From the NCBI RefSeq assembly GCF_055900595.2, contig NZ_CM148325.1: DNA of 64,000 bases; one strand, given 5' to 3'. Positions within the stretch are counted from its first letter, which is position 1; each line of letters starts with the position of its first letter. Below the pieces are notes generated by a model, which made no database searches, was not told where the DNA came from, and saw only the letters and a program-made list of their open reading frames with translations. This document shows positions 25,807-26,307 of the stretch, one piece after another. A program made the translations under genes and the position numbers.

Positions 25807-26307
25807 TCATGAATAAACCCCTTGCTCTATTCGAAAAATGAGCATGGCAACTTTCAACACCCCCTCTTCTGAGTCCATTATCTCGGAGGGCGTTTTCCAC
25901 TGTAATGCTCTGTTTGGTTCATTGCACCAGTTTAATGCTGCACTTTCGTTACCTTCAAAAAGATCAATAGCCTTTTGAAGAACATCATTTTTTGTCAGCA
26001 TGTTTTACACCTGAAGACGTTTTGAGTGCTTCGATAAGACTACTTCGCTCTTCCTCTGTCATCCGGGATATGAGCAATGCAAGTTCTGCTGTTGTCTGAT
26101 CATCACAAAAAAGTAGTTCAACGGCACGTTTAACTCTGCCGCCATCCGTCGAATCGTATCAATATCGGGGACATGGCGCCCTTTCTCATAATGATTCATA
26201 CGACTGCTAGCCGATGCGGGATCAAAGCCAACATGAAGAATTGATAATTGCCGTGCCGAGCAGAGAAAATGAATTCCGGAAACTTTCTCTTGAGCAAGAT
26301 AAAACAC
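25807..26307 (-). pseudogene. Disrupted Xre-family HTH gene with a C-terminal DUF2384-like (Xre/MbcA/ParS antitoxin-type) domain
   Basis: Two ORFs in the same frame (26059-26307 with HTH-like ...SRMNHYEKGRHVPDIDTIRRMAAELNVPLNYFF; 25807-26001 with ...ALNWCNEPNRALQWKTPSEIMDSEEGVLKVAMLIFRIEQG) are separated by in-frame stops TGA (26059-26061) and TAA (26005-26007). Another frame is open across the gap (CDDQTTAELALLISRMTEEERSSLIEALKTSSGVKHADKK), bounded by T6 and A7 homopolymers, which points to frameshift disruption. DUF2384 assignment is from recalled motif pattern only. Confidence 0.55.
26171..26233. repeat. Direct repeat copy A (63 bp), part of the Xre-like HTH coding segment
   Basis: Matches 28722-28784 at 59 of 63 positions, same orientation; the two copies bracket the LRR gene. 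Confidence 0.8.

What the first reader, a model, noticed from the sequence alone, without database searches (positions are those of the whole stretch)
25807..26307. Orphan, disrupted Xre-HTH/DUF2384-type antitoxin-like gene with no toxin partner
The HTH part and the DUF2384-like part are in the same frame but separated by two in-frame stops. An alternative frame is open across the gap and is bounded by T6 and A7 homopolymer runs, the pattern expected from two compensating frameshifts or from homopolymer sequencing errors. Such antitoxins normally sit upstream of a RES-domain or similar toxin; here the downstream space holds only a hairpin and a convergent unknown ORF. This may be the decayed anchor of a former toxin-antitoxin or defence module into which the LRR gene was inserted.
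Basis: partly seen in the sequence, partly recalled or inferred. Interest (0 to 1): 0.5.

Follow-up and report, generated by a model that had tools for sequence, protein, structure and literature searches.

The report
Decayed island regulator beside mini-antitoxin gene
This is not one broken antitoxin gene but the wreck of a two-gene unit from a mobile genomic island: a dead copy of a restriction-controller-type regulator followed by a still-intact 64-residue antitoxin-domain gene that has no toxin beside it in any intact relative examined, so this locus is an ordinary remnant.

Summary
The ORFs, the two in-frame stops and the open alternative frame are real. Intact relatives in E. coli, Pectobacterium and Klebsiella show two overlapping genes, not a fusion. 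One is a 110-aa XRE regulator with its own stop. The other is a 64-aa DUF2384-only ORF whose ATG lies 17 nt (E. coli, Pectobacterium) or 14 nt (Klebsiella) inside it.

The regulator resembles the R-M controller protein C.Csp231I (PDB E=1.8e-22; PADLOC Control_protein 5e-26). In relatives it sits behind two CTTAG-N5-CTAAG palindromes, divergent from a VspR-like gene and next to the recombinase operon of a GInt-like island carrying defence cargo.

In the window the island beside hipA has decayed:
- the integrase genes are gone and the ginD-like gene is truncated;
- a ~589-bp deletion removed regulator codons 1-26, both palindromes and most of the VspR-like gene;
- a T7 run is T6, as in three other independent assemblies, so this is not a sequencing error.

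The A6 run is unchanged: it is the natural gene boundary, not a second frameshift. The 64-aa ORF is intact, is annotated in RefSeq, and folds like the toxin-binding domain of RES/ParT-type antitoxins. No RES toxin lies beside it in any intact relative examined, so its orphan state looks native.

The parts
25807..26001 (-). Intact 64-codon ORF for a DUF2384-only protein (RefSeq WP_000956368.1, 'MbcA/ParS/Xre antitoxin family protein'). An SD-like AGGTG lies 6 nt upstream of the ATG.
   Evidence: ORF and translation. RefSeq annotation in 15 E. coli genomes. Pfam Xre_MbcA_ParS_C E=1.4e-9. NCBIfam Xre_ParS_antitoxin 59.7 bits, below the cutoff of 90, matching only profile positions 55-112. AF2 pLDDT 94.4. 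Foldseek hits only antitoxin chains of RES/ParT-type TA complexes. dN/dS 0.10-0.19 against diverged E. coli and Pectobacterium copies.
25985..26239 (-). Pseudogene remnant of a 110-aa C.Csp231I-like XRE regulator. Codons ~27-110 are present. The natural stop TGA is at 25987..25985 and overlaps the next gene by 17 nt.
   Evidence: Alignment to intact genes in ABWA45, L008 and L004. The intact protein matches PDB 3lfp C.Csp231I at E=1.8e-22 and PADLOC Control_protein at E=5e-26. RefSeq does not annotate this remnant.
26107..26112 (-). Homopolymer with a 1-nt deletion: T6 in gene sense where all intact genes have T7. This is the only frameshift.
   Evidence: T6 is shared by L001, L023 and L026. 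T7 is found in L002-L012.
25988..25993 (-). A6 run (gene sense) inside the natural 17-nt overlap ATGCTGACAAAAAATGA between the regulator's stop and the DUF2384 start. It is not mutated.
   Evidence: The sequence is identical in intact elements L007-L012 and in the window. The Klebsiella version overlaps by 14 nt without an A-run.
26233..26239 (.). Deletion junction with 7-bp microhomology (ATGAAGA on the + strand). About 589 bp (L008 5173-5761) are missing: regulator codons 1-26, its promoter and both operator palindromes, and about three quarters of the VspR-like gene.
   Evidence: Overlapping BLAST segments and alignment A1.
26235..26378 (+). 3' remnant (last ~47 codons) of the divergently transcribed VspR-like gene.
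   Evidence: Matches the C-terminus of the ABWA45 185-aa protein. The E. coli 186-aa protein is 29% identical (E=8e-25) to the Pectobacterium 199-aa protein, which carries Pfam VspR_N and VspR_C.
26422..26438 (-). Terminator-like hairpin between the LRR gene and the remnant. It would limit read-through into the DUF2384 ORF.
25760..25792 (.). 13-bp perfect hairpin between the convergent DUF2384 ORF and the ginD-like remnant.
   Evidence: -21.1 kcal/mol, z=-4.8.
25274..25700 (+). Remnant of the GinD-like small recombination gene. It is 5'-truncated and frameshifted near its 3' end. The three upstream recombinase-type genes are deleted between 25228 and 25274.
   Evidence: BLAST to L008 and L012. 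RefSeq calls it 'hypothetical protein, frameshifted'. Intact operons appear.
25133..25228 (+). hipA-proximal flank that in intact relatives adjoins the first integrase gene, marking the island's end.
   Evidence: 95% match to L008 12095-12190. L012 shows hipA adjacent to the integrases.
28722..28899 (-). Second, independent fragment of the same regulator gene. It holds 32 bp of upstream DNA (only the right half-site of the proximal operator) plus codons 1-49. It lies upstream of the LRR gene and divergent from the ankyrin gene.
   Evidence: A 69-nt direct repeat links it to 26171-26239 at 91% identity.

Best explanation
The feature is the decayed regulatory corner of a GInt-like integrative island inserted beside hipA.

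Intact form of the unit: a controller-protein-type XRE regulator (110 aa) is transcribed from a region holding two CTTAG-N5-CTAAG palindromes, divergently from a VspR-like regulator gene. A 64-aa DUF2384-only gene follows in the same operon. Its ATG lies 17 nt before the regulator's stop, which suggests translational coupling.

Inferred mechanism of the intact unit: by analogy with C.Csp231I and with the ~100-aa Xre of I-F3b Tn7-CRISPR elements, the regulator probably binds the two palindromes as dimers and autoregulates. The operon, including the mini-DUF2384 protein, would then be expressed in a burst when the island enters a cell lacking the regulator and be shut down afterwards.

The mini protein is a complete toxin-binding-type domain with no toxin gene found beside it in the relatives examined. 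Its partner is unknown.

State in this window:
- the recombinase genes are deleted;
- the regulator has lost its promoter, operators and first 26 codons, and also carries an inherited 1-nt deletion;
- the VspR-like gene is reduced to its last ~47 codons;
- only the 64-aa ORF remains intact, now without its native promoter.

The locus is therefore most likely a non-functional remnant. It is neither a broken fused antitoxin nor a toxin-antitoxin module that lost its toxin.
For: Shown:
- Two genes, not one. The intact relative ABWA45 has a 110-aa HTH protein with its own stop. All 120 listed homologues of the conceptual fusion are 94-140 aa and cover only its HTH part. DUF2384 homologues are 57-74 aa. 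Both genes are called separately and overlap in E. coli, Pectobacterium and Klebsiella.
- Lesions. T7->T6, a ~589-bp deletion with 7-bp microhomology, loss of the recombinase genes and a truncated ginD-like gene. T6 is shared by three other independent assemblies.
- Regulator class. PDB C.Csp231I E=1.8e-22. PADLOC Control_protein E=5e-26 over the whole profile.
- Operator-like sites. Two 15-bp palindromes lie 19 bp apart. They are identical in E. coli, Pectobacterium, Klebsiella, Citrobacter and a V. cholerae Tn7-like element. C.Csp231I binds CTAAG-N5-CTTAG twice, 18 bp apart (PMC4321490).
- The domain is genuine. AF2 pLDDT 94.4, and Foldseek finds only the antitoxins VPA0769, Xre, ParS, NatR and MbcA.
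- Both genes are under purifying selection in intact copies: dN/dS 0.10-0.24.
- No RES-domain gene appears on the precomputed Pfam record of the called genes in any intact locus.
- Island type. The order int-int-788aa-147aa followed immediately by cargo matches the published GInt layout (PMC5385486; PMC10214605).

Inferred:
- Autoregulation and burst expression on entry, from Petassi et al. 2020 (bioRxiv 10.1101/2020.07.02.184150).
- Silence of the ORF in this window: no promoter-like site above chance on the minus strand upstream, and a terminator-like hairpin at 26422-26438.
Against: - The half-sites are in the opposite order to the C.Csp231I operator (CTTAG..CTAAG versus CTAAG..CTTAG). Binding by this protein has not been tested.
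- The GInt assignment rests on gene order and Pfam integrase hits only. The 788-aa and 147-aa proteins match no family.
- The 64-aa ORF may not be dead. Among genomes sharing the decayed arrangement it shows only two synonymous differences and an identical protein. Over the same genomes the neighbouring HTH remnant carries three different lesions.
- Expression was not measured.
Confidence: 0.8

Rival explanations
1. One reading: a single Xre-HTH/DUF2384 fusion antitoxin gene, disrupted by two compensating frameshifts at homopolymers or intact but mis-sequenced, that once sat upstream of a toxin now lost.
For: In the window the two parts share a frame, and homopolymers flank the out-of-frame stretch. 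Canonical Xre antitoxins of RES toxins do combine an N-terminal HTH with a C-terminal DUF2384 domain, as in the 149-aa 6gw6 chain (architecture from established knowledge).
Against: - Intact relatives have T7 and the same A6. With these the HTH frame ends at its own TGA and the DUF2384 ORF is in the +1 frame.
- No fusion appears among the 120 best homologues or the 141 nearest DUF2384 representatives.
- T6 recurs in independent assemblies.
- No toxin is recorded beside the pair in any intact locus of three genera.
- The HTH is of the controller-protein type.
Confidence: 0.03
2. The 64-aa DUF2384 gene is still functional in this strain as a stand-alone, trans-acting protein. It might act as an orphan antitoxin or anti-defence factor neutralising RES/ParT/MbcT-type toxins encoded elsewhere, and be retained by selection while the rest of the unit decays.
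For: - The ORF is intact and its protein is identical across all decayed-type genomes examined. It shows 2 synonymous and 0 non-synonymous differences, while the 250-bp HTH remnant beside it carries three separate lesions.
- It has the fold of a complete toxin-binding domain.
- A 72-aa ParS fragment was crystallised bound to ParT (6d0h).
- It keeps an SD-like motif.
Against: - The native promoter and operators are deleted. No promoter-like site above chance lies upstream, and a terminator-like hairpin sits between it and the LRR gene.
- The counts are too small to be statistically meaningful.
- In many E. coli genomes that keep the regulator, the DUF2384 ORF is itself decayed or truncated, as in ABWA45. 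The gene is therefore dispensable to the element.
- No target toxin has been identified.
Confidence: 0.2
3. In the intact unit the two ORFs are joined by programmed +1 ribosomal frameshifting, or by transcriptional slippage, at AAA-AAA-TGA. This would yield an HTH-DUF2384 fusion like a canonical Xre antitoxin.
For: - The DUF2384 frame is +1 relative to the HTH frame.
- The junction is an A6 run followed by a stop codon.
- It is conserved in E. coli and Pectobacterium.
Against: - The Klebsiella homologue keeps the overlap but has no A-run (ATGACAAAAGATGA).
- The second ORF has its own ATG and an SD-like motif.
- Six A residues is short for slippage (from general knowledge).
Confidence: 0.03
4. 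The mini-DUF2384 protein is a regulatory or recombination accessory of the island rather than a toxin binder. It could be a partner or anti-repressor of the controller-type or VspR-like regulator, or a directionality factor.
For: - It is co-transcribed with the regulator in a conserved core unit.
- Pectobacterium also has a 107-aa DUF2384 gene directly after its VspR-like gene.
- Other mini-DUF2384 genes follow small unknown or HTH genes beside SMODS/S_4TM or OLD/UvrD systems, with no RES toxin recorded.
- One survey used the DUF2384 HMM as an excisionase marker (PMC8138268).
Against: - There is no direct evidence of any such interaction.
- The fold matches only toxin-binding antitoxin domains.
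- The gene is absent from Tn7-like and other elements that carry the same regulator/VspR-like pair. The switch therefore works without it.
Confidence: 0.15

Closest known systems
C.Csp231I-class restriction-modification controller proteins, and the ~100-aa Xre of I-F3b Tn7-CRISPR-Cas elements
   Same: - The intact 110-aa protein matches C.Csp231I at E=1.8e-22 and the PADLOC control-protein profile end to end.
- Two 15-bp palindromes built from the pentamers CTTAG and CTAAG with a 5-bp spacer lie 19 bp apart upstream of the gene. C.Csp231I has two CTAAG-N5-CTTAG sites 18 bp apart.
- Like the Tn7 Xre, it sits between the mobility genes and the cargo.
   Different: - It is not next to an R-M system in the GInt-like loci.
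- The half-site order is inverted.
- It is always paired divergently with a VspR-like gene.
- In the 110-aa subgroup it is followed by a mini-DUF2384 gene.
- In the window it is a pseudogene without operators.
DUF2384 antitoxins of RES/ParT-type type II TA systems (P. putida Xre, ParS, MbcA, NatR, V. parahaemolyticus VPA0769)
   Same: - The 64-aa protein has the same C-terminal toxin-binding fold: TM 0.74-0.83 normalised to the query, rmsd 1.0-1.2 Å to VPA0769 and Xre, 34% identity to VPA0769.
- Pfam PF09722 matches.
   Different: - It is domain-only, lacking the N-terminal half (NCBIfam profile positions 1-54), and scores below the NCBIfam cutoff.
- No RES/ParT toxin gene lies beside it here or is recorded in intact relatives.
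- It is co-transcribed with a separate controller-type HTH protein.
GInt genomic islands (ginABCD; Bardaji et al. 2017, PMC5385486)
   Same: - Relatives have two Pfam-positive tyrosine recombinase genes, then a large unannotated protein, then a small protein, with cargo starting right after the small gene.
- GInts are reported as frequent in Pectobacterium and present in Enterobacterales.
   Different: - Homology of the 788-aa and 147-aa proteins to GinC and GinD was not tested.
- In the window only a truncated GinD-like remnant survives.
VspR, the VSP-1 island repressor of the V. cholerae CBASS operon
   Same: The divergent partner gene carries Pfam VspR_N and VspR_C in Pectobacterium, V. cholerae and E. 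coli elements. VspR is described as a negative regulator of island-borne defence genes.
   Different: - The E. coli GInt version has no Pfam hit on record. It is linked only through 29% identity to the Pectobacterium protein.
- Only ~47 codons remain in the window.

Membership tests
RES-Xre / ParST / MbcTA type II TA antitoxin | C-terminal DUF2384 (Xre_MbcA_ParS_C) toxin-binding domain | tested here: met
   Pfam E=1.4e-9. AF2 model with pLDDT 94.4, matched by Foldseek only to antitoxin chains 8gug_B, 6gw6_B, 9r35, 6d0h_B, 8qnq and 6fkg_C.
RES-Xre / ParST / MbcTA type II TA antitoxin | Full-length antitoxin architecture (N-terminal region plus DUF2384 in one polypeptide) reaching the curated family score | tested here: not met
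   NCBIfam NF049845 scores 59.7 bits against a cutoff of 90, and only profile positions 55-112 are matched. TIGR02293 scores 42.3 against 57. The HTH is a separate gene with its own stop. No fusion is seen among relatives.
RES-Xre / ParST / MbcTA type II TA antitoxin | Adjacent, co-transcribed RES/ParT-family toxin gene | tested here: not met
   Downstream in the window lie only a hairpin and the convergent ginD-like remnant. No RES-domain gene appears on the precomputed Pfam record of the called genes in intact loci of E. coli, Pectobacterium or Klebsiella.
RES-Xre / ParST / MbcTA type II TA antitoxin | Neutralises a cognate toxin | not testable with these tools
   Requires co-expression and binding assays.
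R-M controller (C) proteins, C.Csp231I class | Sequence membership in the C.Csp231I-type HTH family | tested here: met
   The intact relative matches PDB 3lfp at E=1.8e-22 (residues 9-94) and PADLOC PDLC03667 Control_protein at E=5e-26 over positions 2-93 of 101. The window copy retains only codons ~27-110 and is frameshifted.
R-M controller (C) proteins, C.Csp231I class | Two palindromic operator sites upstream of its own gene with a long fixed spacer | tested here: inconclusive
   Intact relatives carry CTTAGGATTGCTAAG and CTTAGACAATCTAAG 19 bp apart, conserved across five genera. The half-site order is opposite to the published CTAAG-N5-CTTAG. In the window both sites are deleted at copy 1, and only one half-site remains at copy 2.
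R-M controller (C) proteins, C.Csp231I class | Encoded within and controlling a restriction-modification operon | tested here: not met
   Neighbours are a VspR-like gene, the mini-DUF2384 gene and recombinase genes. A type I HsdR gene lies nearby only in the V. cholerae Tn7-like element.
GInt genomic island | ginABCD-type operon (two catalytic tyrosine recombinases, a recombinase-fold protein lacking catalytic residues, a small protein) at one end, with cargo starting at the ginD stop | tested here: inconclusive
   The gene order and sizes 464/521/788/147 aa and Phage_integrase hits on the first two fit. The 788-aa and 147-aa proteins match no family and were not compared with GinC or GinD. 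The window keeps only a truncated 147-aa homologue.
GInt genomic island | Excision and circularisation dependent on the four genes | not testable with these tools
   This is experimental. In the window the recombinase genes are absent, so the remnant cannot be autonomous.

The most novel reading that the evidence does not exclude
In its intact form, the controller-type regulator plus translationally coupled mini-DUF2384 gene could be a previously undescribed, toxin-less 'entry module' of GInt-like defence islands. The regulator would give a burst of expression in a naive host. The 64-aa toxin-binding domain would act in trans, either disarming resident RES/ParT/MbcT-type toxins (an anti-addiction or anti-defence function) or modulating the VspR-like/controller switch. 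In this window the mini gene alone may have been kept for that purpose.
Probability: 0.2. Interest if true: 0.55.

Novelty: new variant of a known kind. Interest (0 to 1): 0.27.

Why it matters
For this window it matters little. The locus is a pseudogenised scar of a mobile island, and the one intact ORF is already annotated in RefSeq.

Three points are still useful:
- Annotation. A DUF2384 ORF next to an HTH fragment should not be read as a broken Xre antitoxin or a former TA module. Here the same-frame appearance is an accident of a 1-nt deletion.
- Comparative picture. A controller-type regulator with conserved CTTAG-N5-CTAAG palindromes, paired with a VspR-like gene, recurs at the mobility/cargo boundary of GInt-like, Tn7-like and other elements carrying defence cargo. 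It may be a general switch for such islands.
- Open question. Domain-only DUF2384 proteins with no toxin recorded beside them appear repeatedly beside defence systems. This raises a testable question about what the 'toxin-binding' domain binds there.

Tried and rejected
- Fusion gene. I searched 5.8 billion proteins with the conceptual repaired fusion and 1.84 billion cluster representatives with a DUF2384 profile. No HTH-DUF2384 fusion of this type was found. Rejected.
- Sequencing error at the homopolymers. T6 is shared by three other independent assemblies, and the A6 run is the wild-type state. Rejected.
- Lost adjacent toxin. I inspected intact loci in E. coli, Pectobacterium and Klebsiella. 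I also scanned the conserved neighbours against NCBIfam, PADLOC and PHROGs. No toxin-like family was found.
- Hidden DUF2384 ORFs next to the shorter (102-103 aa) regulators in V. cholerae, other E. coli elements and C. koseri. A six-frame HMM search found none.
- Non-coding RNA in 25000-29300. No Rfam hits at E<=0.1.
- Promoter for the surviving ORF. A consensus scan found nothing above chance on the minus strand upstream.
- Programmed +1 frameshift at A6-TGA. Considered and judged unlikely, because Klebsiella lacks the A-run.
- Literature. Searches for DUF2384, COG5642 and PF09722 returned no paper whose listed title or abstract start deals with stand-alone DUF2384 genes in islands; most of those papers were not opened. 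The first DUF2384 search was too loose to be useful.
- The third 'HTH' pseudogene that RefSeq annotates after the ankyrin gene. It gave no BLAST match to the intact unit and no obvious ORF, so I did not pursue it.
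Full report
**What is in the sequence.**
On the minus strand an 82-codon ORF (26307..26059) carries an XRE-type HTH-like sequence. A 64-codon ORF (26001..25807) carries a DUF2384-like sequence. The two share a frame and are separated by two in-frame stops, and another frame is open across the gap. A conceptual repaired protein hits Pfam Xre_MbcA_ParS_C (E=1.4e-9) and HTH_19/HTH_3 (about 1e-7). Its first 26 residues were borrowed from a second HTH fragment at 28867. The homopolymers at the two ends of the out-of-frame stretch are both six long: + strand A6 at 26107-26112 and T6 at 25988-25993. 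They are not six and seven.

**The window is E. coli and the locus recurs.**
The 901 bp around the feature match 15 complete E. coli genomes over at least 80% of their length, at 98.3-99.9% identity. All lie downstream of the ECSE_1600 autotransporter and hipBA. RefSeq annotates the 64-aa ORF as an intact 'MbcA/ParS/Xre antitoxin family protein' (WP_000956368.1). It annotates nothing over the HTH remnant. It calls the convergent ORF at 25.3-25.7 kb a frameshifted hypothetical protein.

**Two genes, not a fusion.**
- Strain ABWA45 has an intact 110-aa HTH protein (WP_071598204.1) that ends at its own stop codon.
- Alignment of the window with ABWA45 and MFDS1022581, and a pattern count over all fetched loci, show that every intact gene has T7 where the window has T6.
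- The sequence CATGCTGACAAAAAATGATG is the same in the window and in the intact E. coli elements L007-L012.
- In the intact state the HTH frame ends at the TGA of AAAAAATGA. The DUF2384 ORF starts at the ATG 17 nt upstream, in the +1 frame.
- There is therefore one frameshift. The 'second' one is the natural gene boundary.
- The two parts share a frame in the window only because of the 1-nt deletion.
- T6 is also present in assemblies from a dog (Korea), a goat (USA) and a human (Japan). It is an inherited mutation, not a sequencing error.
- A search of 5.8 billion proteins with the conceptual fusion listed 120 best hits of 94-140 aa, each covering only its HTH part (43-70% of the query).
- The 64-aa query returned 27 clusters. 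The full-length ones are 57-74 aa, from E. coli/Shigella and Pectobacterium.
- An exhaustive profile search of 1.84 billion representatives found 1575 relatives. None of the 141 newly retrieved proteins among the 150 best has this HTH at its N-terminus, and 45 of them are 90 aa or shorter.

**The bigger lesion.**
Relative to intact elements the window lacks about 589 bp (L008 5173-5761; about 592 bp against ABWA45). The breakpoint at 26233-26239 has 7 bp of microhomology. The deletion removed three things:
- HTH codons 1-26;
- the whole intergenic control region;
- about three quarters of a divergently transcribed 186-aa gene, of which only the last ~47 codons remain (26235-26378).

The HTH gene is dead regardless of the homopolymer.

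**Context in intact relatives.**
Exact-protein look-ups gave intact loci in E. coli (L007-L012), Pectobacterium brasiliense (L004-L006) and Klebsiella (L027-L029). They share one layout:
- an operon of two Pfam-positive tyrosine recombinases, a ~790-aa protein and a ~147-aa protein;
- convergent with it, the HTH (110 aa) followed by the DUF2384 (63-64 aa) gene;
- divergent from that pair, a 180-199-aa gene;
- then variable cargo.

The cargo is a retron-like RT plus ATPase in L007-L012, Hachiman in ABWA45, and OLD-TOPRIM/UvrD in Pectobacterium. L012 shows the recombinases directly next to hipA, the same site as in the window. The layout matches published GInt islands: a ginABCD operon at one end, with cargo beginning at the ginD stop (PMC5385486). 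GInts are reported as frequent in Pectobacterium (PMC10214605). I did not test homology to GinC or GinD, so I call the element GInt-like.

In the window:
- 25133-25228 is the hipA-side flank;
- the three large recombinase-type genes are deleted;
- 25274-25700 is a truncated, frameshifted GinD-like remnant.

No RES-domain gene appears on the precomputed Pfam record of the called genes in any intact locus. The toxin-less state of the DUF2384 gene therefore looks native.

**What the HTH gene is.**
- The intact protein matches the R-M controller protein C.Csp231I (PDB 3lfp, E=1.8e-22).
- It matches PADLOC's control-protein profile end to end (E=5e-26).
- The intergenic region upstream holds two 15-bp palindromes, CTTAGGATTGCTAAG and CTTAGACAATCTAAG, 19 bp apart.
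- These are identical in E. coli, Pectobacterium, Klebsiella, Citrobacter and a V. cholerae Tn7-like element.
- C.Csp231I binds two CTAAG-N5-CTTAG sites 18 bp apart (PMC4321490). The pentamers, spacing and two-site layout agree. The half-site order is reversed.
- Petassi et al. showed that ~100-aa C.Csp231I-like Xre proteins of I-F3b Tn7-CRISPR elements bind two such motifs, autoregulate, and repress a neighbouring operon. They proposed burst expression on entry into a naive host.
- The divergent partner gene carries Pfam VspR_N and VspR_C in Pectobacterium, V. cholerae and another E. coli element.
- The E. coli 186-aa version is 29% identical to the Pectobacterium one (E=8e-25).
- VspR is a repressor of island-borne CBASS genes.

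My inference is that the controller-type and VspR-like pair is a regulatory switch at the mobility/cargo boundary of several kinds of mobile element.

**What the 64-aa gene is.**
- NCBIfam's Xre_ParS antitoxin profile matches only its C-terminal half (positions 55-112), below the curated cutoff (59.7 versus 90 bits).
- An AlphaFold2 model is confident (pLDDT 94.4).
- Foldseek against the PDB returns, at probability 1.00, only antitoxin chains of RES/ParT-type complexes: VPA0769, P. putida Xre, ParS, NatR and MbcA. TM is 0.69-0.83 normalised to the query, with rmsd 1.0-1.2 Å to VPA0769 and Xre. Nothing else is close.
- It is therefore a complete toxin-binding-type domain without the usual N-terminal half.
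- It is a real gene. dN/dS is 0.10-0.19 at dS 0.64-0.74 between diverged copies.
- It occurs only with the 110-aa subgroup of the regulator. Elements with 102-103-aa regulators, and C. koseri, lack it.
- In many E. coli genomes that keep the regulator it is itself decayed or truncated. It is dispensable to the switch.

Its partner is unknown. Other mini or short DUF2384 genes sit after small unknown or HTH genes, beside SMODS/S_4TM or OLD/UvrD systems. Again no RES gene is recorded nearby.

**State of the window copy.**
The native promoter and operators are gone. A consensus scan finds no promoter-like site above chance upstream on the minus strand. A terminator-like hairpin at 26422-26438 separates the ORF from the LRR gene. 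The 13-bp hairpin downstream, within 25760-25792, is real and lies between the convergent genes.

One observation argues against complete death. Among the decayed-type genomes the 195-bp ORF differs only at two synonymous sites. The adjacent HTH remnant shows three different lesions: T6, an 11-bp deletion in EC42405, and a larger deletion in 2013C-4282. The numbers are too small to decide. I give a retained trans-acting role about 0.2.

**The LRR gene.**
A second fragment of the same regulator gene lies at 28722-28899. It holds 32 bp of upstream DNA with one operator half-site, plus codons 1-49. It sits upstream of the LRR gene and divergent from the ankyrin gene. It shares codons 27-49 with the first fragment as a 69-nt direct repeat at 91% identity. 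These are two independently truncated copies, not one gene split by an insertion. The LRR segment is present at 80% coverage or more in only 11 of 5426 E. coli genomes.

**Verdict.**
The locus is a decayed two-gene unit, a controller-type regulator plus a mini-DUF2384 gene, from the backbone of a GInt-like island at hipA. It is not a broken fused antitoxin, not a sequencing artefact, and not a TA module that lost its toxin. In this window it is an ordinary remnant, so I score it low. The intact unit is a modestly interesting, apparently undescribed variant: a toxin-binding domain co-expressed with a controller protein, with no toxin recorded beside it. What that domain binds remains open.

Noticed in passing
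window 26951-28477 (-): A 508-aa protein with ~20-residue LxxLPxLPxxL repeats (60-nt periodicity). Pfam LRR hits are only weak and PADLOC gives none. From memory the repeat type resembles the LPX LRRs of type III effectors, but no ligase domain is evident. The segment occurs at 80% coverage or more in only 11 of 5426 complete E. coli genomes.
   Followed up: partly
window 29170-31143 (+): A 657-aa ankyrin-repeat protein (RefSeq annotation). It is transcribed divergently from the second HTH fragment, in the position the VspR-like gene holds in intact units. It is an unusual cargo for an E. coli island.
   Followed up: no
window 26171-26239 and 28722-28790: A 69-nt direct repeat at 91% identity, made of codons 27-49 of two separately truncated copies of the controller-type gene. 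It brackets the VspR-like remnant and the LRR gene. This suggests cargo exchange by recombination at this conserved gene.
   Followed up: partly
L013 4885-5015 (V. cholerae), L008 5570-5700, L004, L027, L030: The two palindromes CTTAGGATTGCTAAG and CTTAGACAATCTAAG are identical between a V. cholerae Tn7-like element (TnsA/TnsB/TniB with type I HsdR cargo) and enterobacterial GInt-like islands. The regulators themselves are only ~60% identical.
   Followed up: partly
L003 5001-5175 (E. coli ABWA45): Reciprocal decay. In ABWA45 the regulator is intact but the DUF2384 ORF carries a stop and two 1-nt deletions. Many E. coli genomes annotate only the HTH gene at this unit.
   Followed up: partly
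L004 4581-4904 (P. brasiliense): A second DUF2384 protein, 107 aa long, is encoded directly after the VspR-like gene of the same island. It also has no RES toxin recorded nearby.
   Followed up: no
L033-L036 (E. coli and metagenomes), gene at 3001-3198 of L033: A 65-aa DUF2384-only gene follows a 124-aa DUF7661 gene, immediately upstream of a SMODS plus S_4TM pair (CBASS-like conflict system). No RES toxin is recorded there.
   Followed up: no
L023 1-1953 and L024 1-2476: In strains R32_14_1F and EC42405 the space on the hipA side of the ginD-like remnant holds other genes. These are an ABC-three-component system in one strain, and a SIR2 protein plus an ISNCY transposase in the other. The site appears to behave as a variable hotspot.
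   Followed up: no
window 17844-23312 (+): The ECSE_1600-family autotransporter ORF is intact here (1822 aa). The near-identical strain Z0117EC0005 has it annotated as a partial pseudogene.
   Followed up: no
window ~31200-31700: RefSeq annotates a further partial 'helix-turn-helix' pseudogene, an IS481 transposase fragment and an alpha/beta-hydrolase fragment. They lie between the ankyrin gene and the fimbrial cluster and mark the far end of the island scar. The HTH fragment there did not match the controller-type gene.
   Followed up: partly
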